From Nemertoderma westbladi (lineage: Eukaryota; Animalia; Xenacoelomorpha), in contig JAUCBJ010008549.1 of assembly GCA_032718475.1 (NCBI GenBank), forward strand, positions 5,161 to 69,160: a stretch of DNA of 64,000 bases. The letters are read 5' to 3'. Within the stretch, counting starts at the first letter, position 1. Every line of letters starts with the position of its first letter. This document shows, piece after piece, positions 17,273 through 61,083 of the stretch. The notes beneath the pieces were generated by a model. The model had not been told where the DNA came from, searched no databases, and saw only the letters and a list, made by a program, of their open reading frames with translations. A program made the translations under genes and the position numbers.

Positions 17273-17432
17273 GTTACCTTAGTAACACTCGCACCCAGCT
17301 GCTCGTTACCTTAGTAACACTCGCACCCAGCTGTTCGTTACCTTAGTAACACTCGCACCCAGCTGTTCGTTACCATAGTAACACTCGCACACAGCTGTTC
17401 GTTACCTTAGTAACACTCGCACCCAGCTGTTC
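17273..17432 (-). repeat. 5 x 32-bp tandem copy of the exon 7 end plus splice donor
   Basis: Unit gttaccttagtaacactcgcacccagctgttc at 17273, 17305, 17337, 17369 and 17401; the last copy overlaps the exon. Confidence 0.92.
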
Positions 17433-17589
17433 GTTTTCTTCAACTTCATCATCAATGTTTATCCTTTCCATCTCCAAACTCTTCAACCTCCCTTTCAATC
17501 TCTTCACAAGCTCCAGTTGTTTGCGCCGCAACGTTGCCTTACTAATTGCTGATTGGCTGGACTCCAATAAGACGGTTTCTATCGATATT
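17406..17589 (-). CDS. Shroom: Shroom-family exon 7 (start of ASD2)
   Basis: catacag acceptor, AAG|gtaacg donor, phase 2/0; KQLELVKRLKGRLKSLEMERINIDDEVEENEQLG resembles the first ASD2 helix. Confidence 0.85.
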
Positions 17590-17913
17590 CTGTATGGAGA
17601 CGATAAAAAAAATAATTTCAATATTTTTGAAACATAAAAAAACTTTATTTATTAATTCGATACATACAATAAGAGATCAGTTTGGGAATAATAGTAAAAT
17701 AGATTCAAGGTTAGTTTCAAGGTCAATCTCAAGATTTTTTGAGTTACTCGGCCAAAGTGAGTGCTACACAAAACCCGCCACAATTACTATTAACTTTAAG
17801 GAATTTGATCCAAATTTGCAATCCCGAAAAACGGGATCCCGAGAGTTGTAATCCCGGTCCCGATCCCGATCCCGGAGATCCCGAAAAGTCTGATCCCGTT
17901 TCAACAATATAGG

Positions 17914-20900
17914 TAGTACCAACCTTGGGGTATAGATCAGTGTGGGAGAACAAACCTTGGGATAGAGATCAGTGTGGGAGAACCAACCTTGGGAAAGAGA
18001 TCAGTTTGGGAGAACCAACCTTGGGATAGAGATACGTGTGGGAGAACCAACTTTGGGATATAGATCAGTGTGGGAGTACCAACCTTGGGATATAGATCAG
18101 TGAGGGAGAACCAACCTTGGGATATAGATCAGTTTGGGAGAACCACCCTTGGGATATAGATCAGTGTGGGAGAACCAACCTTGGAATAGAGATACGTGTG
18201 GGAGAACCAACTTTGGGATATAGATCAGTGTGGGAGTACCAACCTTGGGATAGAGATACGTGTGGGAGAACCAACTTTGGGATATAGATCAGTGTGGGAG
18301 TACCAACCTTGGGATATAGATCAGTGAGGGAGAACCAACCTTGGGATATAGATCAGTTTGGGAGAACCACCCTTGGGATATAGATCAGTGTGGGAGAACC
18401 AACCTTGGGATAGAGATCAGTGTGGGAGTACCAATCTTGGGATATAGATCAGTGTGGGAGAACCAACCTTGGGATAGAGATCAGTTTGGGAGTACCAACC
18501 TTGGGATAGAGATACGTGTGGGAGAACCAACCTTGGGATAGAGATCAGTGTGGGAGTACCAACATTGGGATATAGATCAGTGTGGGAGAACCAACCTTGG
18601 GATATAGATCAGTCTGGGAGAACCAACCTTGGGATATAGATCAGTGTGGGAGTACCAACCTTGGGATATAGATCAGTGTGGGAGAACCAACCTTGGGATA
18701 GAGATCAGTGTGGGAGTACCAACCTTGGGATAGAGATCAGTGTGGGAGAACCAACATTAGGATAGAGATACGTGTGGGAGAACCAACCTTGGGATAGAGA
18801 TCAGTGTGGGAGTACCAACCTTCGGATATAGATCAGTGTGGGAGAACCAACCTTGGGATAGAGATCAGTGTGGGAGTACTAACCTTGGGATAGAGATCAG
18901 TGTGGGAGAACCAACATTAGGATAGAGATACGTGTGGGAGAAACAACCTTGAGATATAGCTCAGTGAGGGAGAACCAACCTTGGGATAGAGATCAGTTTG
19001 GGAGTACCAACCTTGGGATAGAGATACGTGTGGGAGAACCAACCTTGGGATAGAGATCAGTGTGGGAGTACCAACCTTGGGATATAGATCAGTGTGGGAG
19101 AACCAACCTTGGGATATAGATCAGTGTGGGAGAACCAACCGTGGGATATAGATCAGTGTGGGAGTACCAACCTTGGGATATAGATCAGTGTGGGAGAACT
19201 AACCTTGGGATAGAGATCAGTGTGGGAGTACCAACCTTGGGATGGAGATCAGTGTGGGAGAACCAACATTAGGATAGAGATACGTGTGGGAGAACCAACC
19301 TTGGGATAGAGATCAGTGTGGGAGTACCAACCTTGGGATATAGATCAGTGTGGGAGAACCAACCTTGGGATAGAGATCAGTGTGGGAGTACCAACCTTGG
19401 GATAGAGATCAGTGTGGGAGAACCAACATTAGGATAGAGATACGTGTGGGAGAACCAACCTTGGGATAGAGATCAGTGTGGGAGTACCAACCTTGGGATA
19501 TAGATCAGTGTGGGAGTACCAACCTTGGGATATAGATCATTATGGGAGTACCAACCTTGGGATATAGATCAGTGTGGGAGTGCCAACCTTGGGATATAGA
19601 TTAGTGTGGGAGTACCAACCTTGGGATAGAGATCAGTGTGGGAGAACCAACCTTGGGATATAGATCAGTGTGGGAGTACCAACCTTGGGATATAGATCAG
19701 TGTGGGAGTATCAACCTTGGGATATAGATCAGTGTGGGAGAATCACCCTAGGGATAGAGATCAGTGTGGGAGTACCAACCTTGGGATAGAGATCAGTGTG
19801 GGAGAACCAACATTAGGATATAGATCAGTTTGGGAGTACCAACCAACCTTGGAATAGAGATACGTGTGGGAGAACCAACCTTGGGGTAGAGATCAGTGTG
19901 GGAGTACCAACGTTGGGATAGAGATACGTGTGGGAGAACCAACCTTGGGATAGAGATCAGTGTGGGAGTACCAACCTTGGGATAGAGATACGTGTGGGAG
20001 AACCAACTTTGGGATAGAGATACGTGTGGGAAAACCAACCTTGGGATAGAGATACGTGTGGGAGAACCAACTTTGGGAAATAGATCATTGTGGGAGTACC
20101 AACCTTGGGATATAGATCAGTGTGGGAGTACCAACCTTGGGATATAGATCAGTGTGGGAGTACCAACCTTGGGATATAGATTAGTGTGGGAGAACCAACA
20201 TTAGGATGGAGATCAGTTTGGGAGTACCAACCTTGGGATAGAGATACGTGTGGGAGTACCAACCTTGGGATATAGATCAGTGTGGGAGAACCAACTTTGG
20301 GATATAGATCATTGTGGGAGTACCAACCTTGGGATATAGATCATTGTGGGAGTACCAACCTTGGGATATAGATCAGTGTGGAGGAACCAACCTTGGGATA
20401 TAGATCAGTGAGGGAGAACTAACCTTGGGATAGAGATCAGTTTGGGAGAACCAACCTTGGGATAGAGATCAGTTTGGGAGAACCAACCTTGGGATAGAGA
20501 TCAGTGTGGGAGTACAAACCTTGGGATAGAGAACTGTTTGGGAGAACCAACCTTGGGATAGAGATCAGTTTGGGAGTACCAACCTTGGGATAGAGATACG
20601 TGTGGGAGAACCAACCTTGGGATAGAGATCAGTTTGGGAGAACCAACCTTGGGATCAAGATCAGTGTAGGAGAACCAATCTTGGGATATAGAACAGTGTG
20701 GGAGAACCAACCTTGGGATAGCGATCAGTGTGGGAGTACCAACCTTGGGATAGAGATCAGTGTGGGAGAACCAACATTAGGATAGAGATACGTGTGGGAG
20801 AACCAACCTTGGGATAGAGATCAGTGTGGGAGTACCAACCTTGGGATATAGATCAGTGTGGGAGAACCAACCTTGGGATAGAGAACTGTTTGGGAGAACC

Positions 20901-22647
20901 AACCTTGGGATAGAGATCAGTTTGGGAGTACCAACCTTGGGATAGAGATACGTGTGGGAGAACCAACCTTGGGATAGAGATCAGTTTGGGAGAACCAACC
21001 TTGGGATATAGATCAGTTTGGGAGAACCAACCTTGGGATAGAGATCAGTTTGTGAGAACCAACCTTGGGATAGAGATCAGTTTGGGAGAACCAACCTTGG
21101 GATATAGATCTGTGTAGGAGAACCAATCTTGGGATAGAGATCAGTTTGGGAGAACCAACTTGGGATATAGATCAGTGTAGGAGAACCAATCTTGGGATAG
21201 AGATCAGTTTGTGAGAACCAACCTTAGGATAGAGATCAGTTTGGGAGAACCAACCTTGGGATATAGATCAGTTTGTGAGAACCAACCTTGGGATAGAGAT
21301 CAGTGTGGGAGAACCAACATTAGGATAGAGATCAGTTTGGGAGTACCAACCTTGGGATAGAGATACGTGTGGGAGAACCAACCTTGGGATAGCGATACGT
21401 GTGGGAGAACCAACCTTGGGATAGAGATCAGTTTGGGAGAACCAACCTTGGGATATAGATCGGTTTGGGAGAACCAACCTTGGGATAGAGATCAGTTTGT
21501 GAGAACCAACCTTGGGATAGAGATCAGTTTGGGAGAACCAACCTTGGGATATAGATCAGTGTAGGAGAACCAATCTTGGGATAGAGATCAGTTTGGGAGA
21601 ACCAACTTGGGATATAGATCAGTGTAGGAGAACCAATCTTGGGATAGAGATCAGTTTGTGAGAACCAACCTTGGGATAGAGATCAGTTTGGGAGAACCAA
21701 CCTTGGGATATAGATCAGTTTGTGAGAACCAACCTTGGGATAGAGATCAGTTTGGGAGAACCAACCTTGGGATATAGATCAGTTTGTGAGAACCAACCTT
21801 GGGATAGAGATCAGTGTGGGAGAACCAACATTAGGATAGAGATCAGTTTGGGAGTACCAACCTTGGGATAGAGATACGTGTGGGAGAACCAACCTTGAGA
21901 TAGAGATCAGTTTGGGAGAACCAACTTGGGATAGAGATCAATTTGGGAGTACCAACATTAGGATAGAGATCAGTTTGGGAGTACCAACCTTGGGATAGAG
22001 ATACGTGTGGGAGAACCAACCTTGGGATAGAGATCAGTTTGTGAGAACCAACCTTGGGATAGAGATCAGTGTGGGAGAACCAACATTAGGATAGAGATCA
22101 GTTTGGGAGTACCAACCTTGGGATAGAGATACGTGTGGGAGAACCAACCTTGGGATAGAGATCAGTTTGGGAGAACCAATCTTGGGATAGAGATCAGTTT
22201 GTGAGAACCAACCTTGGGATAGAGATCAGTTTGGGAGAACCAACCTTGGGATATAGATCAGTTTGTGAGAACCAACCTTGGGATAGAGATCAGTGTGGGA
22301 GAACCAACATTAGGATAGAGATCAGTTTGGGAGTACCAACCTTGGGATAGAGATACGTGTGGGAGAACCAACCTTGGGATAAAGATCAGTGTGGGAGTAC
22401 CCACCTTGGGATATAGATCAGTGTGGGAGAACCAACCTTGGGATAGAGATCAGTGGGGGAGTACCAACCTTGGGATATAGATCAGTGTGGGAGAACCAAC
22501 ATTAGGATAGAGATCAGTTTGGGAGTACCAACCTTGGGATAGCGATACGTGTGGGAGAACCAACCGTGGGAAAGAGATCAGTTTGGGAGAACCAACCTTG
22601 GGATAGAGATCAGTTTGGGAGAACTAACCTTGGGATAGAGATCAGTT
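17914..22647. repeat. 32-bp minisatellite (gggagaaccaaccttgggatagagatcagtgt), ~148 copies
   Basis: Direct periodicity; the terminal unit overlaps the end and donor of exon 6. Confidence 0.97.
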
Positions 22648-22762
22648 TTGGATTCGGTTTATTTAAACTCCGTCTGGAACTTTTACGTCGCAGCAACGAT
22701 TTATCACTAATATCGGCGAAACCTTCGGTAAGAGATTCGGTTGTCTTTACTGGAAGTAGAAC
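22629..22762 (-). CDS. Shroom: Shroom-family exon 6
   Basis: ttttttaag acceptor, CCAAG|gttagt donor; 134 bp, phase 0/2, exactly bridging exons 5 and 7 (VLLPVKTTES...PNPKLISIP). Confidence 0.78.
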
Positions 22763-22871
22763 CTTAAAAAAAACAAATCGGGGAACTAAAATATGTAGGA
22801 AAACAAGAAGAACATTGAGTAGAGCTTTAATAAGAGGAAACAATACCTTGGTAGAAGCAGTGGGAAACATA

Positions 22872-24550
22872 TAATGTTACGTTATAACCAAAGTAAGGGT
22901 ACGTTTGGTTCTATGTAATGGTACGTTTGGAGCAATGTAAGGGTTCGTTTGGGTCTATGTAATGTTGCGTTTGGACCAAAGTAAGGGTTCGTTTGGGTCT
23001 ATGTAATGTTACGTTTGGACCAATGTAATGGTACGTCTCGGTCTTTGTAATGTTACGTTTGGAGCAATGTAAGGGTACGTTTGGGTCTATGAAATGTTAC
23101 GTTTGGAGCAATGTAAGGGTACGTTTCGGTCTATGTAATGTTGCGTTTGGACCAATGTAAGGGTACGTTTCGGTCTATGTAATGTTACGTTTGGACCAAT
23201 GTAATGGTACGTTTTGGTCTATGAAATGTTACGTTTGGACCAATGTAATGGTACGTCTCGGTCTTTGTAATGTTACGTTTGGAGCAATGTAAGGGTACGT
23301 TTGGGTCTATGTAATGATGCGTTGGGACCAATGTAAGGGTACGTTTGGGTCTATGTAATGTTGCGTTTGGACCAATGTAAGGGTACGTTTCGGTCTATGT
23401 AATGTTACGTTTGGACCAATGTAATGGTACGTTTTGGTCTATGTAATGTTGCGTTTGGACCAATGTAATGGTACGTCTCGGTCTATGTAATGTTGCGTTT
23501 GGACCAATGTAATGGTACGTTTCGGTCTATGTAATGTTGCGTTTGGACCAATGTAATGTTACGTTTGGACCAATGTAAGGTTACGTTTGGGTCTATTTCA
23601 TGTTGCGTTTGGACCGTAAGGGTACGTTTGGGTCTATATATGTAATGTTGCGTTTGGACCAAAGTAAGGGAACGTTTGGGTCTATGTAATGTTGCGTTTG
23701 GACCAATGTAATGGTGCGTTTCGGTCTATGTAATTTTGCGTTTGGACCAATGTAATGTTACGTTTGGACTAATGTAAGGTTACGTTTTGGTCTATTTCAT
23801 GTTGCGTTTGGACCGTAAGGGTACGTTTGGGTCTATGTATGTAATGTTGCGTTTGGACCAAAGTAAGGGAACGTTTGGGTCTATGTAATGTTGCGTTTGG
23901 ACCAATGTAATGGTGCGTTTCGGTCTATGTAATTTTGCGTTTGGACCAATGTAATGTTACGTTTGGACTAATGTAAGGTTACGTTTTGGTCTATTTCATG
24001 TTGCGTTTGGACCGTAAGGGTACGTTTGGGTCTATGTATGTAATGTTGCGTTTAGACCAAAGTAAGGGAACGTTTGGGTCTATGTAATGTTGCGTTTGGA
24101 CCAATGTAATGGTGCGTTTCGGTCTATGTAATTTTGCGTTTGGACCAATGTAATGTTACGTTTGGACTAATGTAAGGTTACGTTTTGGTCTATTTCATGT
24201 TGCGTTTGGACCGTAAGTGTACGTTTGGGTCTATATATATAATGTTACGTTTGTACCAAAGTAAGGGAACGTTTGGGTCTATGTAATGTTGCGTTTGGAC
24301 CAATGTAATGGTGCGTTTCGGTCTATGTAATTTTGCGTTTAGACCAATGTAATGTTACGTTTGGACTAATGTAAGGTTACGTTTTGGTCTATTTCATGTT
24401 GCGTTTGGACCGTAAGTGTACGTTTGGGTCTATATATGTAATGTTGCGTTTGGACCAATGTAAGGGTACGTTTGGGTCTATGTAATGATGCGTTTGGACC
24501 AATGTAATGGTACGTTTGGGTCTATGTAATGTTGCGTTACGTTATGTAAG
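22872..24550. repeat. 22-bp minisatellite with 44-bp dimer and 199-bp higher-order repeat
   Basis: gtaatgttgcgtttggaccaat alternates with gtaagggtacgtttgggtctat; marker ggaccgtaag at 23611, 23810, 24009, 24208 and 24407. Confidence 0.95.
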
Positions 24551-24621
24551 GGCACGAATGAGCGAAAGATGCGAGAGTAGGAATATTCAACTTCCATAAT
24601 ATATATAGTGACGTCACCAAC

Positions 24622-24894
24622 CTGGGACAAGGTGTTCGAAGCACAATTAGAAGCCACCAAGCGGCAGAGTTCATCCACGCGTCTATCCTCTTTGGTCTGC
24701 GACTTCTGCCTAATTATAACTTTCGGAGGAACAGCGCTTTCTGATTGGCTGTCCCAGTAGTTGTTGACACGATGTTGCGATTGGTTGGCTGTATCTGTAG
24801 TGTGTGTAGCAGTAGTATCAACTCTGTCTACCTGGGAACTATCGCTGCTACGATTGTGTGACGTCATACTAATGTTGTTACTAGCAACGGGTTT
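24622..24894 (-). CDS. Shroom: Shroom-family exon 5
   Basis: aatatag acceptor, CAG|gttggt donor; 273 bp, phase 0/0; open frame KPVASNNISMTSHN...SNTLSQ. Confidence 0.72.
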
Positions 24895-25104
24895 CTATAT
24901 TCAGGAAATAGTGATACATTAACAATTTAAACGTTATGTTATATATACAGCAAGTGGTTTTATATTTCATTGAAGATAAATATCGTTATGTACGATTACA
25001 GCTGATACATTCAATAGCGAAGTAAACTTTACTTTACTTTACAGCTTTGGAGGCGCAACTTTACAATGAAACAATTAATTTTAAACTTTACATTTCCTAT
25101 ACCG

Positions 25105-27970
25105 AAGCAGGACCTTATCGCCCCTGGAATTTTATCGCCCCCATAAATTGCATTTTTGTTGGGAACTTATCGCCCCTGGGACTTTATCGCCCCCGAGTCT
25201 TTATCGCCCCTGGTCCCGTATCGCCCCTGTCATTATATGCAGGATACTTTCCCCCAACTGTCTCATACTTCCTCTAAGTCACATGTTTTCCTGTAGTTAT
25301 AGTTTACATTTATATTTATACTCAAGTAGTTTCAGTTAGAGGAGGCCTACAATTAGAAATTATATTATTCATATTCAATTCATAGACTAAGCAGCAGCTT
25401 GATTTAGTATTAACCCTTTTTTTGCACTTGTTGCTTTTAAGCAACAGTTAATTATTAGTCTTATCTCATAGAAAAACCATCAATCAACCATTACTGCACC
25501 TTGCGGCTTATATCCTTTAGGAAACAGAGTGGAAGGGTTTACTGTGGAAGATCACCCATGGTGGTGAACAGGCATTCCTTTAGGAAACAGAGTGGAAGGA
25601 TTTACTGTGGAAGATCACCCATGGTGGTGAACTGAACATGCATTCTTTTAGGAAACAGAGTGGAAGGGTTTACTGTGGAAGATCACCCATGGTGATGAAC
25701 ACTAACAGGCATTCCTTTAAGAAACTGAGTGGAAGGGTTTACTGTGGAAGATCACCCTTGGTGGTGAACAAGCATTCTTTTAGGAAACAGAGTGGAATGG
25801 TTTACTGTGGAAGATCACCCATGGTGGAGAACAGGCATTCCTTTAGGAAACAGAGTGGAAGGGTTTACTGTGGAGGATCACCCATGGTGGTGAACAAGCA
25901 TTCCTTTAGGAAACAGAGCGGAAGGGTTTACTGTGGAAGATCGCCCATGGTGGTGAACAGGCATTCCTTTAGGAAACATAGTGGAAGGGTTTACTTCGGA
26001 AGATCACCCATTGTGGGGAACAGGCATTCCTTTAGGAAAAAGAGTGGAAGGGTTTACTGTGGAAGATCGCCCATGGTGGTGAACAGGCATTCCTTTAGGA
26101 AACATAGTGGAAGGGTTTACTTTGGAAGATCACCCATTGTGGGGAACAGGCATTCCTTTAGGAAAAAGAGTGGAAGGGTTTACCGTGGAAGATCAGCCAT
26201 GGTGATTAACACGAACAGGCATTCTTTTAGGAAACAGAGTGGAAGGGTTTATGTGGAAGAACACCCATGGTGGTGAACAGGCATTCCTTTAGGAAACAGA
26301 GTGGAAGGGTTTACTGTGGAAGATCACCCATAGTGATGAACACGAACAGGCATTCTTTTAGGAAACAGAGTGGAAGGGTTTATGTGGAAGAACACCCACG
26401 GTGGTGAACAGACATTCCTTTAGGAAACAGAGTGGAATGGTTTACTGTGGAAGATCACCCATGGTGGTGATTTGTGAACAAGCATTCCTTTAGGAAACAG
26501 AGCGGAAGGGTTTACTGTGAAAGATCACCCATGGTGATGAACACGAACAGGCATTCTTTTAGGAAACAGAGTGGAAGGGTTTATGTGGAAGAACACCCAT
26601 GGTGGTGAACAGGCATTCCTTTAGGAAACAGAGTGGAAGGGTTTACTGTGAAGATCACCCATGGTGATGAACACGAACAGGCATTCTTTTAGGAAACAGA
26701 GTGGAAGGGTTTATGTGGAAGAACACCCACGGTGGTGAACAAGCATTCCTTTAGGAAACAGAGCGGAAGGGTTTACTGTGGAAGATCACCCATGGTGGTG
26801 AACAGACATTCCTTTAGTAAACAGAGTGGAATGGTTTACTGTGGAAGATCACCCATGGTGGTGAACAGGCATTCCTTTATGAAACAGAGTGGAGGGTTTA
26901 CTGTGGAAGATCACCCATGGTGGTGAACAGACATTCCTTTAGTAAACAGAGTGGAATGGTTTACTGTGGGAGATCACCCATGGTGGTAAACTGGCATTCC
27001 TTTAGGAAACAGAGCGGAAGGGTTTACTGTGGAAGATCAACCATGGTGGTGAACAAGCATTCCTTTAGGAAAAATAGTGGAAGGGTTTACTGTGGAAGAT
27101 CACCCATGGTGATAAACACGAACAGGCATTCTTTTAGGAAACAGAGTGGAAGGGTTTATGTGGAAGAACACCCATGGTGGTGAACAGGCATTCCTTTGGG
27201 AAACAGAGTGGAAGATCACCCATGGTGATGAACACGAACAGGCATTCTTTTAGGAAACAGAGTGGAAGGGTTTATGTGGAAGAACACCCATGGTGGTGAA
27301 CAGGCATTCCTTTAGGAAACAGAGTGGAATGGTTTACTGTGGAAGATCACCCATGGTTGTGAACAAGCATTCCTGTAGGAAACAGAGCGGAAGGGTTTAC
27401 TGTGGAAGATCACCCATGGTGGTGAACAGGCATTCCTTTAGGAAACAGAGTGGAAGGGTTTACTTTGGAAGATCACCCATGGTGATGAACACGAACATGC
27501 ATTCTTTTAGGAAACAGAGTGGAACGGTTTATGTGGAAGAACACCCATGTTGGTGAACAAGCATTCCTTTAGGAAACAGAGCGGAAGGGTTTACTGTGGA
27601 AGATCACCCATGGTGGTGAACAGGCATTCTTTTAGAAAACAGAAAACAGATTGGAAGGGTTTATTGTGGAAGATCACCCAAGGACACAACGTGGTGATCA
27701 GGCATTCGTTTAGGAAGCAGAGTTGAATGGTTTAATTTGGAAGCTCAGCCTTGACGGCGTACAGGCATTCCCTAGCTTACTACGTTTATCTCCTTCAAAA
27801 TTCAGAAATTCATATTTGTCGCAGGGGCGATTAGTTACCAGGGGCGATAAAGACCCGGGGGCGATATGTTACCAGGGGCGATAAAGACCCGGGGGCGATA
27901 TGTTCCCAAGGGGCGATAAAGAACCATTTGAGGGGCGATAAGTTCCCAGGGGGCGATAAGGCCCTACACT
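25105..27970. mobile_element. Non-autonomous TIR element with inverted subterminal (ttatcgcccc) motifs enclosing a satellite
   Basis: Repeated ttatcgcccc at 25110-25230 and ggggcgata at 27823-27965, with similar outer ends in inverted orientation. Confidence 0.65.
25513..27770. repeat. 63-bp minisatellite, ~35 copies
   Basis: Unit cattcctttaggaaacagagtggaagggtttactgtggaagatcacccatggtggtgaacagg with +6/-1 variants. Confidence 0.95.
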
Positions 27971-28814
27971 CTACTATACTCTATACGCGTATCGCTTGTA
28001 CCCACCCACCCTACACTAACAATGTCAGTATTAAATAAATTAAACACCAACTTACAGCAAATTATATTTTTAATATTAAATATTTGTAGAATATATATAA
28101 TTGAATTGGTTTTGTTTAAAATATATTAAGATAAGAATTTAAGATTGTAGTTGATGTATATAATGGTAACTTATTGAATTAATTATTAAAATCAGGAACG
28201 AATTCAACAAAGAAACTATTTTATAACGTTTAATTTCTACGGCTCGATCGAGACATCCACGGCGAGTTGAATTAGTTGTAACAAATTAATAACATGGGCA
28301 CCGAATACAACCAAGTTGTGTGAGGCAATAAGTTGAGCCGTCGTTATACCGGGATGGGACACGGCCGGGTTACCAAAATTAAGTTTTTAATTACCGCGGT
28401 ACATTTGTACTAAATTATTTAGATATTATTTTATTACGATAATTCGATGTAAAGTTCGAATAAATTATTATAAATTCTCGCGGAACAACAAATAATATTT
28501 GAAACAATAAAACCCGATAAATTATTAACAACAAGGTTTATAGCGGCAGCTATTTATTGTTACAATAACTTAATTCTGTTGAGATTCGGCCGTATCGTTA
28601 ACTATAGATTCCTGGCGTATTGCCGGGAAACGGATATCAATAAATTAATTGAATATTTAATTATTCTGAGTAAATTGGAAGATTTTTCAAACAGAATTTC
28701 TAGTTTAAAATTGTAATTAATAATAAAGGAAGTTTATTATAGGTAAACTAAAACGCGTTTAACACTCCGTCACTAACTCGCTTTATTTGACTAAGAAATT
28801 AATTGAAATCTAAC

Positions 28815-29124
28815 CGGAATAAATCCCTCTGGTTGATTAGCGGTTGTTACAGGAACTGTAGAGACATCTACGTCGTTCGTTAATGTACCGCTAGATGGTG
28901 TCGCGGTACTGCTATCAGTTGTATCGTTTAGAGCAAAGGGATTGGCTACAGTTACATCGCTGTCGGGCTTCCGATTGGCTACAGCTGTTGCAGTAGTCGG
29001 GGATTGGGGCGGCGTACTCTTAGGGGCCCCTAGCGAGCCGGGGTAGAATCTTCTCTGGGCCGACGGACTCTTGGCCAGTTTGTATTGCATGTAGGTTCCG
29101 GCTTGCGGGGGCGGCGGGGGGAAC
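28815..29124 (-). CDS. Shroom: Shroom-family exon 4 (FPPPPP motif)
   Basis: attttag acceptor, CCG|gttaga donor; 310 bp, phase 2/0. Confidence 0.75.
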
Positions 29125-29762
29125 CTAAAATAACAATAAAATAATTTCTGAGACAAAACTTATAAATGTTAGAGTCGAATCGTCAACTACAACTTGTGCG
29201 TAAACTACAATTTACTGTAGTAAAGTAAAAGTAAAGAAAACTTATGTATTTTTATATTACAAAGAGGAAACCATTGAAAATATTAGGTAACGTTTACTTC
29301 TATTGTACTGTAAGGCCAGGGATAACCACCCAGAACTATACTCCCCAGAGGAAACTCCACTAGGGATCGAACCCACGACTTCCAAGGCAATGGATTGCGG
29401 TAATTCGTAACGGTAATGACATTTTATAAAATATAATAAAATAAAAAATGTCGTTAAAATCTAAGAGTCAAAATACTGTATATTGTAATTATAATGTTTC
29501 AGTTTCAGGAACCGGTGTTGTCTGTTCTGTTAGATTATTAGAGCCAGTATTTAACGTGTTTCAATAATAACAGGGGAGGGAGAGCTTGTGGGTGGATTCC
29601 CGATAATTTATTATAAAAATGTCACAAAGTTTTAATAATAAATATTATTACTGAATAAAAAACTATCTAATTCATTAATTAAATATTAGGGAAGAAAAAA
29701 ACTCACATGATTATAATAATATAGTTTATTGAAAATTAATAAAATATTTCAAAAGATTTAAT

Positions 29763-32024: not shown

Positions 32025-32830
32025 TAAAATACCCATTTGTAATTAAATAAACAGCTAAACATTATTTGTGTCAACTTTTTACATTATTTAAGATTTCCGA
32101 ACACGAGAAAAATTCATTTAATAATAAAAAAAACTCAAAAACATAAAATAGTTTGAGAAAATTATATTTACAACTTATTTTACTGAAAAAAAAACCACAA
32201 ACAAATACATAAATATAAAAAATATATAATAAAACAAATATATAAAGTTTATAATAACTAACAAGTAAACTAAAGGCAATAAGTGGGTAGTTAAACCGAT
32301 AAAATAAACAACATCCGGAGTAATAGCTGACGGTATAGCTGGCATTCTCGGTGGATGGTGTTTATTCTACATTCCAGACAAAGCTAATTAGGCTGGAGTT
32401 GCCAAATATTCGCTAATTAGTCTCAGAATAAAGGCGATTAGGTGGAAACCAGATCGATACTGTACTGTAGTATATGTACATTGTACAGTTATAGTAGATA
32501 TACTGTATTTTGGTATAAATAAATATACAAGATCACAAGTTAATGGCCGCAGGGTCATATACTTACTGTACTAACAGCTGTACAATAGGGTCAGTCAGTG
32601 TTACCTTGTTTGCTACAGTAATTAATGAGTTGCATGAAATTTATTACACAAATAGTTTCACCTCCTTATAATAATAATATTAGACTTACTTAACTATCCC
32701 TGCTTAAATAAATCCAGAATCCAAATGTTTTTACTTATTATGACTTTAACTGAAACTTTATTACATTATTCAGTAACTTCCTAATCACCATTAAATAATT
32801 GTTTACAGAGTTGCTATGCGACTAACTAAC

Positions 32831-32988
32831 CCCAAAGTCCCGTCGTTTTCGATCAGGCCTCCAGCCCGTATGACGTCATCCAAGTCTGTGACTTGCAGTG
32901 AGTCAGCAGTGCCAACTGAATCCATTGATACACTGCCAGTTAGAAGGACGTCCGGTAGGTTAAAGTCATCATTACTTTCAGTTTCAAT
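32831..32988 (-). CDS. Shroom: Shroom-family exon 3 (not in the ORF track)
   Basis: aaatag acceptor, GG|gttagt donor; 158 bp, phase 0/2; open frame IETESNDDFNLPDVLL...IENDGTL. Confidence 0.68.
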
Positions 32989-35221: not shown

Positions 35222-35750
35222 ACTACTACTACTAGGTCGAGCGAACTCGGACAGTGGAAATTAGATCCTTCCAGGCTTCCCGATTCTCCATAGTTGTCGC
35301 AATTTCGTTTCTCTCAAGTTCAGTATCCCTTTCAAGTTGATCTATTTATGTTATGGCCGGTCGTCCACGACTACGCTTTCCATGAGTTAGTTGCCAGAAA
35401 AAAAGATCTGGTATGACTTTGCCAGCAGTGCCCACAGAATCTTAATCTGCGTTCACGGAGGGTGGTTGATACAGGTGGTATTGTACCATAAAGCTCGGCG
35501 TTTGCCATGTGTTGTCTCCAGCTGATGTTTAGGGCTGCCCTTAGTAGTTTTGTGTAGCAACCATCAATTCGTTGTTCAAGTGATTTAGTCAGTGTCCAGG
35601 TCTCACCCCCGTATAAAAATACACTTTCCACTGTGGCTCGAAAGAACTTAGTCTTCAGGTGCCTGGAGAGATCTGATTTCCAGATGGTATCCATTTTTGA
35701 TAGAGTTACCCAAGCGTCTTTGCTTTCCTAACTTCTATGTCCTTTTTGTA
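35222..35750 (-). mobile_element. RTE-clade LINE family B, 3' fragment
   Basis: ORF 35371..35694 is near-identical to the C-terminus of 8795..9781; (tag)n tail. Confidence 0.9.
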
Positions 35751-37723: not shown

Positions 37724-37947
37724 CAATCGATTTAATCTCTCTCGATCTGTAGAACTCATGGAATCGCCTGTATCTACGCTGTGCCTCCACCGCTGCACCA
37801 CCGGTGCCCGAGACCCTTCGAAGGGACTCGTTTCCATGACAGTAGTGGCCCGTCTAGCTGGGTTATGGCTCCTACTAACCCAGCCTGGTGCTGCAGGGAT
37901 TCCTTTCTCTGGGATTGGCGGTGGCCCTTCAGGGAGTGGTAAACAAC
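37724..37947 (-). CDS. Shroom: Shroom-family exon 2
   Basis: catacag acceptor, TTG|gttagt donor; 224 bp, phase 1/0; GCLPLPEGPPPIPEK...DRERLNRL. Confidence 0.72.
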
Positions 37948-51571: not shown

Positions 51572-51741
51572 CTAGTATTCGTCCTGATCAGGTGGAGGCG
51601 GGTCCTCGAATATCTCGAGTTCGTCTGGAGGAGCGAAACCGTCTTCGGTTGCGTAAAGTATATCCATAATTCGTTGGAAAGTCGTGTTAGTCTCGTGGTC
51701 CGGGGTCTCCTGTATCAGTAGCTCAATATCGCGGAGCTTAC
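51572..51741 (-). CDS. MAPRE: EB1/MAPRE microtubule plus-end protein, last exon (not in the ORF track)
   Basis: GKLRDIELLIQETPDHETNTTFQRIMDILYATEDGFAPPDELEIFEDPPPPDQDEY*, matching the EBH domain end and acidic EEY-like tail. Confidence 0.93.
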
Positions 51742-53055
51742 CTGGGGGAAATACATGGAGGTTTATTTACCTGGGGAAATATATGGAGGTTTATATACCT
51801 GGGGGAATACAGAGGAATTTATATACCTGGGAGAAATACAGGGAGGTTTATATACCTGGGAGAAATACAGGTAGGTTTATATACCTGGGGGAAATACAGG
51901 GAGGTTTATATACCTGGGAGAAATACAGGGAGGTTTATATACCTGGGGGAAATACATGGAGGTTTATATACCTGGGGGGAATACAGGGGAGTTTATATAC
52001 CTGGGAGAAATACAGGGAGGTTTATATACCTGGGAAAAATACAGGGAGGTTTATATACCTGGGAGAAATACTGGGAGGTTTATATACCTGGGAGAAATAC
52101 GGGGAGGTTTATATACCTGGGAGAAATACTGGGAGGTTTATATACCTGGGGGGAATACAGAGGAGTTTATATACCTGGGAGAAATACAGGGAGGTTTATA
52201 TACCTGGGAGAAATACAGGGAGGTTTATATACCTGGGAGAAATACTGGGAGGTTTATATACCTGGGGGAAATACAGAAGAGTTAATATACCTGGGGGAAA
52301 TAAAGGAGGTTTATATATACCTGGGGAAATCAGGGTGGTATATACCAGGAGAAATACAGGGGAGTTTATATACCTGGCACAAATACTGGGAGGTTTATAT
52401 ACCTGGGGGAAATACAGAAGAGTTAATATACCTGGGGAAAATAAAGGAGGTTTATATATACCTGGGGGAAATACAGGGGGTTTATATACCTGGGGGAATA
52501 TAAGGAGGTTTATTTCCCTGGGAGAAATACATGGAGGTTTATATACCTGAGGTGAATTATGGAGGTTTATATACATGGGGGATATACAGGGAGGGAGGAT
52601 ATATAGCTGGAGGAACTAACGGAAGGTTTATATAACTCAATTAGGGAAATAAATCAGGTTTATATATTGGGGGAAAATACAGGGAGGTTTATATAACTGG
52701 GGAAATAAAGCAGGTTTATATTCCTGGGGGAAATAAAGGAGGTTTATGTTCGTGGGTGAAATAAAGGGAAGTTTATATACCTGGGGGAAATAAAGGAGAT
52801 TTAAATTCCTGGGGGAAATAAAGGAGGTTTATGTTCCTTGGTGAAATAAAGGGAAGTTTATATACCTGGGGGAAATACAGGGAGGTTTATTTTCCTGGGG
52901 GAAATAAAGAGAAGTTTAAATACCTGGGGGAAATACAGGGAGGTTTAAATACGTGTGTGAAATAAAGAAGTTTATATACCTGGGGAAATACAGGGAGGTT
53001 TATATACGTGGGGGAGATACAGAGAGGTAAATTTATATACCCGGGAAAAATAAAG
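51740..53055. repeat. 29-bp minisatellite (acctgggagaaatacagggaggtttatat), ~45 copies, built on the EB1 splice acceptor
   Basis: Minus-strand unit atataaacctccctgtatttctcccag|gt; the terminal unit is the predicted acceptor. Confidence 0.95.
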
Positions 53056-53059
53056 TTTA

Positions 53060-53363
53060 CTGGTGTGCGCGCAAATCCCATCTATGCGAATGTGTCTTGT
53101 CTCAAATGTTAAATTATCAATTGAGATAAAGGATTCGGTTACAGAGGCAAGTTATTTATACCAAAACGATAAACGATAAAGTCAATAGAACAGGTTACAG
53201 CTCTACTTATGAGAGAATTCAGCAGATAGTTGTGTTGATTTTCCCAAGGAGAGGGATTAAATTTGACCACCCCCCCCCCCCCCCCCCCACCCCATCTATC
53301 ATTTTTTCATTCATTCATAATTAACGGCTCCCTAATTCGTAGGAATTAGGGAGCCGTTAATTA
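53060..53363 (+). mobile_element. Interspersed repeat ending in poly-C and a hairpin; related copy at 61130-61400
   Basis: Shared aaatcccatct, aatgttaaattat, ggttacag, aaagtcaata and poly-C; palindrome at 53318-53363. Confidence 0.55.
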
Positions 53364-53401
53364 ATGGAATTAATGTTGCGGATTGAGGTCGAGCGCGGCG
53401 T

Positions 53402-53896
53402 GATCATATTATATGTTGAGCCTCCAGGGTGCTGGAAGGAAGAACTGGGGTGAGGGTTTTGCCACGTATATTAATAAAAATATTTATGAATGTATAATAT
53501 TTGATTATTATATTTCCGATATTTATCATCACAGAAACTCAATGTAAAAATATCTGAATGTAATTTTGAACTGGACCGAACTAGACCGAATGAAAAACAA
53601 CCATCTGTGTACACGGAACACAAGTGGAGATACGAACTAGACCGAATGAAAAAGATTTATTTAAATAAATTAAAAAGATTATTTAAAGAGATTTAAAGAG
53701 ATTAAAGTGTTTATTTTTGTAAATTTACTTTGAATTTTATTTAATTTGGTTATTTTAATGTTTAATATATTCCGCTGAAGACACCCGAAACGGGCGAAAT
53801 GCGCATACGGACATAAACTCTATTAATATACGTGGCAAGACCCTCACCCCAGTTCTTCCCCCCAGCCCCCTGGAGGTTCAACATATAATGATGATC
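53402..53896. mobile_element. Penelope-like remnant: ~75-bp inverted repeats enclosing a hammerhead
   Basis: 53402-53475 is inverted at 53821-53896; hammerhead at 53768-53815. Confidence 0.65.
53768..53815 (+). ncRNA. Minimal type-I hammerhead ribozyme (predicted AUA cleavage)
   Basis: tattccg-CTGAAGA-cacccgaaacgggc-GAAA-tgcgca-TA-cggacata; palindromic stem III. Confidence 0.75.
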
Positions 53897-54539
53897 TTAT
53901 CGGAGAGGATAAGTCATTCCAGAATCTGACAAGTTTGCACACAGTTGACATTAGTCATTGTGTTTGTGAAAGTTATAAGGATAATGTTATGATTGGCCAG
54001 AATGTCTACAAAAGAAATCATAATAATTAATTTAAATGTTTTCTTAAGTTGTTGCATTACTTGGTTTCCTGAATATAAAATTAGTGGGAGCAAGGAGGGG
54101 GGGGGGGGGGGGGGGGGGTCAATAACTATGGTTTAATAGTTCAGAATTATAAAGGATGTCTATTACGACGTAGTCGTAGTGGTCTGGTTAAGTGTGATTC
54201 GTTCTCTTGGTTCTTGTGGTCGTATCGTAACTGCGAGTGAAGTATACCTTAACTTACCGGAAAAAAATTCCTTGAAAAAAGAATTTCCGAAAACTTACAT
54301 CGCTAAAGATTGATGAAGGAATTATTGCTTTACATGATTTTTATTGAATCTGAATTTCATTCAGTAAATTTATTAAATATATATGAATATCTATTTACAA
54401 AGAATATAAACAAATATTGAATTGGATTATTATATATGGAAATATTGAATTATTGAATATGATAAACATATTTTATCATATTCAATGATAAATATGTGAT
54501 GTTGCACTATCCTCTGGTGTAAATGATGCTCGTTCATAT

Positions 54540-54835
54540 GAGTTCAGCTCTAAAAAGTGCACCAGTCCCGCCTAAATCTCAGAAACGCAATCACTGGGTA
54601 TAATCATGATTGTTATGAAGAGACAAAGAAGCTGAATATTGCTTTCAACAAATGGAAGGGAAATGTCCCCCGAGTAACACGCGATGCGCGTAGTCAATAC
54701 AAGCGCCAATACAGTCAACTTATTCGGGAGAAAAGAGCTTCCTATTTTGCACAAAAAGAACCCAGTTTAATTGAGGAATGCGAAAATGACAAGATAAACT
54801 TCTGGAATATTCTGAGAGATCGATCCCAGTAGAAA
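54540..54835 (+). pseudogene. Decayed LINE ORF2 fragment (EN-RT linker-like)
   Basis: YKRQYSQLIREKRASY...NDKINFWNILR resembles the linker preceding LINE RT domains. Confidence 0.45.
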
Positions 54836-54885
54836 CCTGCAGCTGCAGCTTTTGTAATTATTTTAATCCAAGCGGCCAAACTTAC

Positions 54886-55013
54886 CGAAATAAAAGTCCC
54901 GCTCTTTCTCTAGACTATCGACTGTTACTTTGGTCTCTAACAGCTGGTTATTTAATTCCTCTATCTGGTTTTCCGTCGTTGTTTGGTTGGCCCGCGCCGC
55001 ACCCATGGGAGAC
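54886..55013 (-). CDS. MAPRE: EB1/MAPRE penultimate exon (coiled coil)
   Basis: ttttatag acceptor; QIEELNNQLLETKVTVDSLEKERDFYF G|gtaagt; phase 1 joins GKLRDIE. Confidence 0.93.
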
Positions 55014-55024
55014 CTATAAAATAG

Positions 55025-58000
55025 ACATTATACGACTACTTAAACATTATACGACTACTTAAACATTATACGACTACTTAAACATTATACGACTACTTAA
55101 ACATTATACGACTACTTAAACATTATACGACTACTTAAACATTATACGACTACTTAAACATTATACGACTACTTAAACATTATACGACTACTTAAACATT
55201 ATACGACTACTTAAACATTATACGACTACTTAAACATTATACGACTACTTAAACATTATACGACTACTTAAACATTATACGACTACTTAAACATTATACG
55301 ACTACTTAAACATTATACGACTACTTAAACATTTATACGACTACTTAAACATTATACGACTACTTAAACATTATACGACTACTTAAACATTATACGACTA
55401 CTTAAACATTATACGACTACTTAAACATTATACGACTACTTAAACATTATACGACTACTTAAACATTATACGACTACTTAAACATTATACGACTATACTT
55501 AAACATTTATACGACTACTTAAACATTACACGACTACTTAAACATTATACGACTACTTAAACATTATACGACTACTTAAACATTATACGACTACTTAAAC
55601 ATTTATACGACTATACTTAAACATTTATACGACTACTTAAACATTATACGACTACTTAAACATTATACGACTATTTAAACATTATACGACTACTTAAACA
55701 TTATACGACTACTTAAACATTATACGACTACTTAAACATTATACGACTACTTAAACATTACACGACTACTTAAACATTATACGACTACTTAAACATTATA
55801 CGACTACTTAAACATTTATACGACTACTTAAACATTATACGACTACTTAAACATTATACGACTACTTAAACATTATACGACTACTTAAACATTATATGAC
55901 TACTTAAACATTATACGACTACTTAAACATTTATACGACTACTTAAACATTATACGACTACTTAAACATTTATACGACTACTTAAACATTATACGACTAC
56001 TTAAACATTATATGACTACTTAAACATTATACGACTACTTAAACATTTATACGACTACTTAAACATTATACGACTACTTAAACATTTATACGACTACTTA
56101 AACATTATACGACTACTTAAACATTATACGACTACTTAAACATTATACGACTACTTAAACATTATACGACTACTTAAACATTATACGACTACTTAAACAT
56201 TATACGACTATACTTAAACATTTATACGACTACTTAAACATTATACGACTACTTAAACATTATACGACTACTTAAACATTATACGACTACTTAAACATTA
56301 TACGACTATACTTAAACATTTATACGACTACTTAAACATTATACGACTACTTAAACATTATACGACTACTTAAACATTATACGACTACTTAAACATTATA
56401 CGACTACTTAAACATTATACGACTATACTTAAACATTTATACGACTACTTAAACATTATACGACTACTTAAACATTATACGACTACTTAAACATTATACG
56501 ACTATACTTAAACATTTATACGACTACTTAAACATTACACGACTACTTAAACATTATACGACTACTTAAACATTATACGACTACTTAAACATTATACGAC
56601 TATACTTAAACATTTATACGACTACTTAAACATTATACGACTACTTAAACATTATACGACTACTTAAACATTATACGACTACTTAAACATTATACGACTA
56701 CTTAAACATTATACGACTATACTTAAACATTTATACGACTACTTAAACATTATACGACTACTTAAACATTATACGACTACTTAAACATTATACGACTATA
56801 CTTAAACATTTATACGACTACTTAAACATTATACGACTACTTAAACATTATACGACTACTTAAACATTATACGACTACTTAAACATTATACGACTACTTA
56901 AACATTATACGACTACTTAAACATTATACGACTACTTAAACATTATACGACTACTTAAACATTATACGACTACTTAAACATTATACGACTACTTAAACAT
57001 TATACGACTACTTAAACATTATACGACTATACTTAAACATTTATACGACTACTTAAACATTATACGACTACTTAAACATTATACGACTACTTAAACATTA
57101 TACGACTATACTTAAACATTTATACGACTACTTAAACATTATACGACTACTTAAACATTATACGACTACTTAAACATTATACGACTATACTTAAACATTT
57201 ATACGACTACTTAAACATTATACGACTACTTAAACATTATACGACTATACTTAAACATTTATACGACTACTTAAACATTATACGACTACTTAAACATTAT
57301 ACGACTACTTAAACATTATACGACTATACTTAAACATTTATACGACTACTTAAACATTATACGACTACTTAAACATTATACGACTACTTAAACATTTATA
57401 CGACTACTTAAACATTATACGACTATACTTAAACATTTATACGACTACTTAAACATTATACGACTACTTAAACATTATACGACTACTTAAACATTATACG
57501 ACTATACTTAAACATTATACGACTACTTAAACATTATACGACTACTTAAACATTATACGACTACTTAAACATTATACGACTACTTAAACATTATACGACT
57601 ACTTAAACATTATACGACTATACTTAAACATTTATACGACTACTTAAACATTATACGACTACTTAAACATTATACGACTATACTTAAACATTTATACGAC
57701 TACTTAAACATTATACGACTACTTAAACATTATACGACTACTTAAACATTATACGACTATACTTAAACATTTATACGACTACTTAAACATTATACGACTA
57801 CTTAAACATTATACGACTATACTTAAACATTTATACGACTACTTAAACATTATACGACTACTTAAACATTATACGACTACTTAAACATTATACGACTACT
57901 TAAACATTATACGACTACTTAAACATTATACGACTACTTAAACATTATACGACTATACTTAAACATTTATACGACTACTTAAACATTATACGACTACTTA

Positions 58001-61000
58001 AACATTATACGACTACTTAAACATTATACGACTACTTAAACATTATACGACTACTTAAACATTATACGACTACTTAAACATTATACGACTACTTAAACAT
58101 TATACGACTACTTAAACATTATACGACTACTTAAACATTATACGACTACTTAAACATTATACGACTACTTAAACATTATACGACTACTTAAACATTATAC
58201 GACTACTTAAACATTATACGACTACTTAAACATTATACGACTACTTAAACATTATACGACTACTTAAACATTATACGACTACTTAAACATTATACGACTA
58301 CTTAAACATTATACGACTACTTAAACATTATACGACTACTTAAACATTATACGACTACTTAAACATTATACGACTACTTAAACATTATACGACTACTTAA
58401 ACATTATACGACTACTTAAACATTATACGACTACTTAAACATTATACGACTACTTAAACATTATACGACTACTTAAACATTATACGACTACTTAAACATT
58501 ATACGACTACTTAAACATTATACGACTACTTAAACATTATACGACTACTTAAACATTATACGACTACTTAAACATTATACGACTACTTAAACATTATACG
58601 ACTACTTAAACATTATACGACTACTTAAACATTATACGACTACTTAAACATTATACGACTACTTAAACATTATACGACTACTTAAACATTATACGACTAC
58701 TTAAACATTATACGACTACTTAAACATTATACGACTACTTAAACATTATACGACTACTTAAACATTATACGACTACTTAAACATTATACGACTACTTAAA
58801 CATTATACGACTACTTAAACATTATACGACTACTTAAACATTATACGACTACTTAAACATTATACGACTACTTAAACATTATACGACTACTTAAACATTA
58901 TACGACTACTTAAACATTATACGACTACTTAAACATTATACGACTACTTAAACATTATACGACTACTTAAACATTATACGACTACTTAAACATTATACGA
59001 CTACTTAAACATTATACGACTACTTAAACATTATACGACTACTTAAACATTATACGACTACTTAAACATTATACGACTACTTAAACATTATACGACTACT
59101 TAAACATTATACGACTACTTAAACATTATACGACTACTTAAACATTATACGACTACTTAAACATTATACGACTACTTAAACATTATACGACTACTTAAAC
59201 ATTATACGACTACTTAAACATTATACGACTACTTAAACATTATACGACTACTTAAACATTATACGACTACTTAAACATTATACGACTACTTAAACATTAT
59301 ACGACTACTTAAACATTATACGACTACTTAAACATTATACGACTACTTAAACATTATACGACTACTTAAACATTATACGACTACTTAAACATTATACGAC
59401 TACTTAAACATTATACGACTACTTAAACATTATACGACTACTTAAACATTATACGACTACTTAAACATTATACGACTACTTAAACATTATACGACTACTT
59501 AAACATTATACGACTACTTAAACATTATACGACTACTTAAACATTACACGACTACTTAAACATTATACGACTACTTAAACATTATACGACTACTTAAACA
59601 TTATACGACTACTTAAACATTATACGACTACTTAAACATTATACGACTACTTAAACATTATACGACTACTTAAACATTATACGACTACTTAAACATTACA
59701 CGACTACTTAAACATTATACGACTACTTAAACATTATACGACTACTTAAACATTATACGACTACTTAAACATTATACGACTACTTAAACATTATACGACT
59801 ACTTAAACATTATACGACTACTTAAACATTATACGACTACTTAAACATTATACGACTACTTAAACATTATACGACTACTTAAACATTATACGACTACTTA
59901 AACATTATACGACTACTTAAACATTATACGACTACTTAAACATTATACGACTACTTAAACATTATACGACTACTTAAACATTATACGACTACTTAAACAT
60001 TATACGACTACTTAAACATTATACGACTACTTAAACATTATACGACTACTTAAACATTATACGACTACTTAAACATTATACGACTACTTAAACATTATAC
60101 GACTACTTAAACATTATACGACTACTTAAACATTATACGACTACTTAAACATTATACGACTACTTAAACATTATACGACTACTTAAACATTATACGACTA
60201 CTTAAACATTATACGACTACTTAAACATTATACGACTACTTAAACATTATACGACTACTTAAACATTATACGACTACTTAAACATTATACGACTACTTAA
60301 ACATTATACGACTACTTAAACATTATACGACTACTTAAACATTATACGACTACTTAAACATTATACGACTACTTAAACATTATACGACTACTTAAACATT
60401 ATACGACTACTTAAACATTATACGACTACTTAAACATTATACGACTATACTTAAACATTATACGACTACTTAAACATTATACGACTACTTAAACATTACA
60501 CGACTACTTAAACATTATACGACTACTTAAACATTATACGACTACTTAAACATTATACGACTACTTAAACATTATACGACTACTTAAACATTATACGACT
60601 ACTTAAACATTATACGACTACTTAAACATTATACGACTACTTAAACATTATACGACTACTTAAACATTATACGACTACTTAAACATTATACGACTACTTA
60701 AACATTATACGACTACTTAAACATTATACGACTACTTAAACATTATACGACTACTTAAACATTATACGACTACTTAAACATTACACGACTACTTAAACAT
60801 TATACGACTACTTAAACATTACACGACTACTTAAACATTATACGACTACTTAAACATTATACGACTACTTAAACATTATACGACTACTTAAACATTATAC
60901 GACTACTTAAACATTATACGACTACTTAAACATTATACGACTACTTAAACATTATACGACTACTTAAACATTATACGACTACTTAAACATTATACGACTA

Positions 61001-61083
61001 CTTAAACATTTATACGACTACTTAAACATTATACGACTACTTAAACATTACACGACTACTTAAACATTATACGACTACTTAAA
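55025..61083. repeat. 19-bp minisatellite (acattatacgactacttaa), ~6 kb, ~315 copies
   Basis: Highly homogeneous tandem array starting ~10 bp from the EB1 acceptor AG. Confidence 0.98.

What the first reader, a model, noticed from the sequence alone, without database searches (positions are those of the whole stretch)
17273..61083. Recurrent pattern: unrelated intronic minisatellites seeded from the host genes' own splice junctions
Seen: three unrelated arrays contain the exon-intron boundary in their repeat unit (17273-17432 donor, 17914-22647 donor, 51740-53055 acceptor). A fourth (55025-61083) starts ~10 bp from an acceptor AG. Two more (36-bp, 22-bp) fill introns to within ~70-110 bp of both flanking exons. 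Inference: a lineage-specific process amplifies 19-36 nt segments at splice boundaries into kb-scale arrays, inflating introns and requiring the spliceosome to ignore or use many decoy sites. Tandem duplication of AG|GT segments is a known model for intron gain; the density here in two neighbouring genes is what stands out.
Basis: partly seen in the sequence, partly recalled or inferred. Interest (0 to 1): 0.85.

Follow-up and report, generated by a model that had tools for sequence, protein, structure and literature searches.

The report
Mirage minisatellites in Shroom and EB1
In two neighbouring genes of an invertebrate animal, three exon edges with their splice signal have been copied head-to-tail 5 to 148 times into the intron, yet the assembled RNA joins at the copy next to the exon; this repeat type is already known from lancelets and a human gene, is likely a tolerated by-product, and sits on exon edges more often than random placement predicts, for a reason still unknown.

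Summary
Real, but a known kind. The window holds a Shroom gene and the 3' end of EB1/MAPRE, both on the minus strand. Three unrelated arrays carry a splice site in their unit: 32 bp x5 and 32 bp x148 (donors) and 29 bp x45 (acceptor), which is 3 of 19 splice sites. Spliced contigs confirm all three junctions at the exon-adjacent copy. Every decoy tested would give a premature stop, and decoy signals are not purged.

Edge placement exceeds chance: P about 0.001-0.002 on today's sequence, but only 0.01-0.05 if stripped short introns are the null.

The title overreaches. Only 3 of 9 arrays straddle a junction. The 19-bp array stops 9 nt before the AG, the 36-bp array likely grew from a dispersed repeat, and three arrays far from exons were omitted.

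These match the amphioxus 'mirages' and the human F7 VNTR, so they are not lineage-specific. No intron gain is shown. The scan has noted the same pattern elsewhere in this genome and in at least 24 genomes (unchecked notes). What draws duplications to exon edges remains open.

The parts
12044..40285 (-). Shroom (ASD2-domain) gene model, 9 exons: 40285-38863, 37947-37724, 32988-32831, 29124-28815, 24894-24622, 22762-22629, 17589-17406, 16684-16535, 12436-12044
   Evidence: Open 1082-codon frame, all GT-AG. ASD2 hits on the last three exons. Junctions e6-e7, e7-e8 and e8-e9 confirmed by RNA-like contigs. Exons 1-5 are model only.
17273..17435 (-). Mirage array A: 32 bp x5, unit = last 27 nt of Shroom exon 7 + first 5 intron nt; true donor in the first copy (last exon base 17406)
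   Evidence: X5 loose end at 17404 joins exon 8, and RNA depth is 0 over 17270-17369. All 4 decoys give an early stop.
17918..22646 (-). Mirage array B: 32 bp x148, unit = last 20 nt of Shroom exon 6 + first 12 intron nt; true donor in the first copy (last exon base 22629)
   Evidence: X5 loose end behind 17591 reads into unique exon 6 sequence. All 134 decoys scored give a stop at codon 846 or earlier.
51739..53050 (-). Mirage array C: 29 bp x45, unit = last 26 intron nt (pyrimidine tract + AG) + first 3 nt of the last EB1 exon; true acceptor in the last copy (first exon base 51741)
   Evidence: X4 and X5 loose ends join 54886 to 51741. Copies are more degenerate away from the exon.
51572..55013 (-). 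Last two coding exons of EB1/MAPRE (55013-54886, 51741-51572); upstream exons lie outside the window
   Evidence: Pfam EB1, 476 homologues, tblastn colinearity, RNA-like contigs. The upstream loose end is not found in the window.
55025..61085 (-). 19 bp x315 intronic array ending 9 nt before the EB1 acceptor AG; covers the likely branch-point zone, contains no junction
   Evidence: Acceptor at 55013 confirmed by an X5 loose end. The branch-point position is inferred.
22872..24538 (.). 22/44-bp array filling Shroom intron 5 (192 nt of non-array sequence left); not junction-containing
12545..16417 (.). 36-bp array in Shroom intron 8, split by a LINE fragment (13581-15239) with a ~12-nt target-site-like repeat; likely grown from a dispersed repeat, not from a junction
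   Evidence: DNA depth 37,000-57,000 at 16420-16469 against 13-24 in the neighbouring unique sequence.
3342..5034 (.). 17-bp array with an inverted copy of its unit at 2360-2392 (control: not at a junction)
25513..27771 (.). 63-bp array between inverted repeats at about 25109-25229 and 27822-27965 (control: not at a junction)
30300..30876 (.). ~39-bp compound array in Shroom intron 3, with short inverted flanks (control: not at a junction)

Best explanation
Three short segments that include a splice site are each repeated head-to-tail into the intron while the RNA contigs join at the exon-adjacent copy, so these are 'mirage' minisatellites, likely neutral by-products of ordinary local duplication that survive because splice-site choice is likely positional. 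Steps: (1, inferred) a 19-36 nt segment is duplicated at 3-4 nt of microhomology. (2, inferred) Copies wholly inside an exon are purged, while copies straddling an edge leave the exon intact and push the spare copy into the intron. (3, shown at contig level) The first donor and the last acceptor are used. For donors this is likely the upstream-first rule shown for human F7; for the acceptor it is likely exon definition (inferred). (4, shown) Decoy signals stay intact, so the array can grow by slippage or unequal exchange (mode inferred). (5, partly shown) The excess at exon edges likely combines originally short introns with a modest real bias of seeding near exons.
For: Junctions confirmed at the exon-adjacent copy in X5 (all three) and X4 (EB1). 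In array A two decoys match the true donor over the whole 32-nt unit plus the next base, so local sequence cannot explain the choice. GT is kept in 135 of 148 copies of array B, and the GT columns vary 0.05 and 0.02, like most other columns. All 4 + 134 donor decoys give early stops. Of 34 acceptor decoys, 32 stop before the normal end (29 at once), and the other 2 run on in array sequence. Units are unrelated to each other. Array-bearing introns are short once arrays and repeats are stripped: 192, 328 (about 80 of it single-copy by depth) and 183 nt. Published precedent with normal splicing: PMC3087553 section 16; PMC1557585 abstract and discussion. Microhomology of 3-4 nt at array edges was read by eye.
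Against: Short introns do not fully absorb the excess: the worst-case null still gives P 0.013-0.046. About 9 kb of non-array sequence in Shroom introns 1-4 holds no host-seeded array. Contigs drop rare forms and the loose-end tables were cut (128 and 392 rows not shown), so low-level decoy use is not excluded. In array B the true donor has A at +4 (4 of 148 copies) while most decoys have G, which could reflect selection for weaker decoys. No orthologous intron without an array was available (no relative above 41% identity for the ASD2 exon), so ancestral intron length is inferred.
Confidence: 0.6

Rival explanations
1. A real targeting mechanism seeds duplications at exon edges (for example transcription- or spliceosome-linked breaks, or nucleosome-linker exposure, repaired by microhomology-mediated copying), and this bias, not short introns, is the main cause of the pattern.
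For: P 0.001-0.002 for 3 straddles among 9 arrays and about 0.001 or less for 4 within 12 nt; still 0.013-0.046 in the worst case. All five host-seeded arrays lie within about 110 nt of an exon. All nine arrays lie inside modelled transcription units, none in roughly 17 kb between the models. Unchecked scan notes report the same excess in this and other genomes.
Against: One window, chosen for the pattern. The excess vanishes if introns were 300 nt or shorter at seeding. No hairpin, G4 or GC signature separates the 3 amplified junctions from the 16 others. Unit ends do not coincide with splice sites, so an RNA-circle or lariat template is unlikely. The stretches counted as intergenic may be introns of unmodelled 5' exons.
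Confidence: 0.25
2. The decoys are used. The AG|GT copies in the EB1 array act as recursive splice points, or error-rescue points that regenerate a donor, and array length tunes unproductive splicing of Shroom and EB1.
For: Most decoy acceptors in array C are followed at once by GT: 29 of 33 listed, and 21 of about 23 exon-proximal units keep pyrimidine tract + AG + GT. An unchecked note on an NF-kB intron in this genome proposes stepwise removal.
Against: No decoy junction among the listed RNA loose ends, and zero RNA depth over array A decoys. The GT after the AG is simply the first exon bases copied, and 6 of 10 modelled exons here start with GT. Signals decay with distance in array C (8 against 21 intact per half). 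The intron is only 3.1 kb.
Confidence: 0.1
3. The arrays created these introns by tandem duplication of an AG|GT segment (Rogers model).
For: The EB1 intron start and the next exon start share 5 nt (ambiguity). The model is proposed for mirages in PMC3087553.
Against: Each array holds only one end of its intron. The other splice site is in unrelated sequence, with no unit copy there.
Confidence: 0.03
4. The arrays are assembly artefacts, or the exon borders are wrong.
For: No listed contig spans a whole stretch, and copy numbers could not be checked.
Against: 63 distinct unit types among 143 full-length units in array B. A LINE is nested in the 36-bp array. DNA contigs of X1 and X2 run from unique flanks into array edges (X1 may be the source sample). 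RNA-like contigs confirm the borders.
Confidence: 0.02

Closest known systems
Amphioxus 'mirage' minisatellites (Adh3, globins BflGb6 and BflGb9, troponin C, PGBD5). Seen: PMC3087553 section 16 in full; PMC3902484 passages. The original Adh3 paper (Canestro et al. 2002, PMC117041) was not held and is known only as cited there.
   Same: Locus-specific tandem repeats spanning a 5' or 3' exon-intron boundary; units of 10-160 bp; spare AG/GT signals; normal splicing; mechanism of origin called unclear.
   Different: Copy number here reaches 148 (4.7 kb) against 2-7 in the globin and PGBD5 cases read. The animal is not shown to be a lancelet (EB1 last exon at most about 72% identical to any listed protein). 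Length polymorphism and somatic instability are not shown here.
Human F7 IVS7 37-bp VNTR. Seen: PMC1557585 abstract and discussion.
   Same: The first unit spans the exon-intron donor; downstream pseudo-donors are identical and silent; only the most upstream is used.
   Different: 5-9 copies at one locus. Here two donor arrays and one acceptor array lie in adjacent genes, and the upstream-first rule does not explain the acceptor array, where the last copy is used.
Intron gain by tandem duplication of AG|GT segments (Rogers model). Seen: passages in PMC2812944 and PMC3087553.
   Same: Short internal tandem repeats at exon-intron boundaries carrying splice signals.
   Different: Here the arrays extend existing introns from one end; no new intron bounded by two copies is seen.

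Membership tests
mirage minisatellite | Tandem repeat whose unit spans a true exon-intron boundary | tested here: met
   Three arrays; boundaries confirmed by spliced contigs. Array C includes only 3 exon nt.
mirage minisatellite | Unit length within the published 10-160 bp | tested here: met
   29-32 bp; range from PMC3087553 section 16.
mirage minisatellite | Many copies keep AG or GT splice signals | tested here: met
   5 of 5 and 135 of 148 keep GT; 33 decoy acceptors with a pyrimidine tract.
mirage minisatellite | Regular splicing uses the exon-adjacent copy | tested here: met
   Contig-level only (X5 for all three, X4 for EB1); rare forms are not visible.
mirage minisatellite | Locus-specific, mutually unrelated units | tested here: met
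   No blastn-short hit outside the own array for 8 of 9 arrays within the window; the rest of the genome was not available.
mirage minisatellite | Length polymorphism between haplotypes | tested here: inconclusive
   DNA depth over array A is 180-674 against about 24 (X1) and 45-229 against 13-26 (X2), but summed contig depth is not a copy number.
mirage minisatellite | Somatic length instability | not testable with these tools
   Needs single-molecule or per-tissue long reads.
intron gain by AG|GT tandem duplication | Both intron ends are copies of one duplicated segment | tested here: not met
   The opposite splice site of each intron has no unit copy.
intron gain by AG|GT tandem duplication | Intron absent from orthologous genes of relatives | not testable with these tools
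   No close relative or eukaryote genome context available.
recursive splice sites | AG|GT points joined to the upstream donor in nascent RNA | tested here: inconclusive
   Motif present in array C; no such junction among the listed contig ends, but no raw or nascent reads were available.

The most novel reading that the evidence does not exclude
Exon edges are mutational hot spots for short tandem duplication in many invertebrate genomes through a transcription- or splicing-coupled process, making splice-site satellites a major and unmeasured driver of intron growth. Acceptor arrays whose unit ends in AG|GT are tolerated at large size because a wrong splice regenerates a donor and is re-spliced.
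Probability: 0.25. Interest if true: 0.7.

Novelty: new member of a known kind. Interest (0 to 1): 0.35.

Why it matters
The loci are natural tests of splice-site choice: one donor picked from 148, and the last acceptor picked from about 34, where every tested error would truncate or derail the Shroom ASD2 domain or the EB1 tail. The origin of mirages was left unexplained in the papers read, and eight literature searches returned no genome-wide test of their enrichment. The library lacks most subscription papers, and supplements were not read. A genome where half of the intron length in two genes is tandem array makes that test feasible. As a single locus it adds examples, not a new mechanism.

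Tried and rejected
- Whole-genome test: no genome is held for this window.
- Run search with Shroom exon 1: no RNA holder listed, and X4/X5 held next to none of its words. This is no evidence on expression, but it leaves the 5' part of the model unverified.
- X6 laid nothing on the EB1 stretch; X3 was never laid.
- Hairpin, G4 or high-GC seed hypothesis: fold z-scores of the 9 seed windows lie between -1.2 and +1.0, and the 3 amplified junctions do not differ from the 16 others. Rejected.
- Purging of decoy GT: not seen.
- Copy-number difference from contig depth: inconclusive.
- Polarity in array B is not relied on, because the reference unit was taken next to the exon.
- A possible relic of the array B unit at 17671-17690 was not significant in blastn-short.
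- Identifying the animal: no close protein relative. best about 72%; none; at most 41%; one search gave only SnAC look-alikes, set aside against Pfam ASD2 at E 2.9e-15.
- Weak Pfam hits (Cro, LRAT, mucin, Tir and others, E above 0.001) were treated as chance or low-complexity.
- PMC117041 was not held.
- Scan look-ups 'near' and an eight-word query found nothing.
Full report
What is there. Tandem Repeats Finder lists nine arrays longer than 100 bp with units of 17-63 bp, counting the split 36-bp array once. No genome is held for the window, so all statistics are within the window. Six-frame reading gave two minus-strand genes. A nine-exon Shroom model (40285-12044) is open for 1082 codons with GT-AG introns in consistent phase. 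Its last three exons hit Pfam ASD2 at profile positions 105-152, 155-201 and 210-288, and the two EB1 exons hit the EB1 motif at 1-9 and 11-41. EB1 homologues align colinearly across the junction. No close relative was found, so the animal is unidentified.

RNA check. The run search listed six coded runs, none on record as RNA. When laid, X4 and X5 behave as spliced RNA. On 53000-55045, an X5 contig covers 54881-55013 with no difference, and in both runs the loose end continues in the last EB1 exon. This fixes the junction 54886 to 51741, the last AG of the 29-bp array. On 16420-17915, X5 loose ends give 16535 to 12436, 17406 to 16684 and 22629 to 17589; the last reads into unique exon 6 sequence, so the first copy's donor is used. 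RNA depth is zero over the decoys of the five-copy array. Nine of 19 modelled splice sites are thus confirmed, including all three inside repeat units. Shroom exons 1-5 remain a model. Contigs hide rare forms, and 128 and 392 loose-end rows were not shown.

Which arrays are junction-seeded. Junction-spanning 14-mers recur 143, 6 and 32 times at three sites and at most 4 times at the other 16. Units hold 27+5, 20+12 and 3+26 exon+intron nt. In the acceptor array the three exon bases are also the microhomology at the array edge (by eye). The 19-bp array stops 9 nt short of the AG. The 22-bp and 36-bp arrays lie 83-117 nt from exons. The 36-bp array is interrupted by a LINE fragment with an RT hit and a ~12-nt target-site-like repeat and abuts a repeat of very high DNA depth, so it likely grew from a dispersed element. 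The 17-, 63- and ~39-bp arrays have inverted flanks and lie 0.3-2 kb from exons. The units are unrelated to each other. Arrays make up 20,624 of 40,209 intron bases.

More than chance? With arrays collapsed and wholly exonic seeds excluded, three or more straddles among nine arrays has P 0.0010 (whole window) or 0.0016 (genic); for the five host-seeded arrays it is 0.0002-0.0008 (5000 trials each). These nulls include two junctions of a third, unverified gene model. However, the array-bearing introns are short once repeats are stripped (192, 328 and 183 nt; depth shows about 245 nt of the 328 is high-copy). Conditioning on those introns gives P 0.013-0.046 (stripped lengths estimated by me). 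Uniform ancestral introns of 300 nt or less give P 0.04-0.7. The excess is probably real, but its size depends on how long the introns were when the arrays started. The window was also selected for the pattern.

How it likely works. Decoys are not weakened as a rule. GT survives in 135 of 148 copies and in 5 of 5, and two copies of the short array match the true donor throughout. Use of a decoy would be harmful: all 4 + 134 donor decoys give early stops; of 34 acceptor decoys, 32 stop early and 2 run on in array sequence. Choice must therefore be positional. For donors this fits the upstream-first rule shown by mutagenesis at human F7 (PMC1557585, discussion read). For the acceptor array the last copy wins, which I infer is exon definition; this is untested. 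Copies are more intact next to the exon (21 against 8 per half; Spearman P 0.0008), which suggests growth at the exon end, not purging. One hint runs the other way: the true donor of the long array has A at +4, as do only 4 of 148 copies. No hairpin, G4 or GC signature marks the seeds. Most decoy acceptors are followed by GT (29 of 33), so a wrong splice would regenerate a donor. Rescue by re-splicing is possible but unshown.

Comparison with what is known. Tandem repeats spanning exon-intron boundaries are named 'mirages' in amphioxus Adh3, globins, troponin C and PGBD5, with normal splicing and an unexplained origin (PMC3087553 section 16 read; PMC3902484 passages; the Adh3 paper was not held). 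Human F7 has the same donor arrangement. PMC2812944 (passages) covers intron gain from internal repeats. PMC10078293 (passages) covers repeats that shift splicing and gave no test of junction-spanning arrays in the passages seen. Five defining features of mirages were met, length polymorphism was inconclusive, and somatic instability was not testable. The Rogers intron-gain feature was not met. Eight searches found no genome-wide enrichment test; supplements were not read and subscription papers are mostly missing. The scan's own unchecked notes report the pattern widely in this genome (62 of 79 notes fit the words) and in at least 24 genomes (148 findings). I treat these as leads, not support, but with the papers they remove the 'lineage-specific' claim.

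Verdict. A real, RNA-confirmed, dense example of a known repeat kind. The open question is why duplications collect at exon edges. Interest 0.35.

Noticed in passing
window 13581-15239: RT-bearing LINE fragment inserted into the 36-bp array with a ~12-nt target-site-like repeat, so the array predates the insertion. Related fragments recur at about ten places in the window, and a longer RT frame lies at 8741-9778.
   Followed up: partly
window 2360-5060, 25109-27965, 29940-31430: Three minisatellites sit between inverted repeats (17-, 63- and ~39-bp units), like foldback or MITE-type elements carrying internal arrays.
   Followed up: partly
window 54881-54885 and 51737-51741: The EB1 intron start and the following exon start share 5 nt, so the spliced junction itself looks like a strong donor; 6 of 10 modelled exons begin with GT.
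   Followed up: partly
window 38863-40285: The modelled first Shroom exon (1.4 kb) is preceded by an acceptor-like AG, and its words were not held by the two RNA-like runs that cover the 3' exons deeply; it may belong to an alternative isoform or follow further 5' exons.
   Followed up: no
window 2208-2237 and 5323-5670 (+): Possible small two-exon gene for a Thr/Ser-rich protein with hydrophobic stretches at both ends (weak mucin hit, E 0.0019); unverified.
   Followed up: no
Shroom and EB1 donors: Five of the nine modelled donors have T then A at +3/+4, an unusual donor preference compared with the vertebrate consensus (consensus recalled).
   Followed up: no
window 17671-17690: Possible relic of the 32-bp array B unit, cut off from the array by about 230 nt of high-copy repeat; not significant in blastn-short.
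   Followed up: partly
window 47769-48797 and 36764-37270: A 467-bp two-copy tandem repeat inside a repeated element, and an inverted-repeat element carrying an ACG microsatellite.
   Followed up: no
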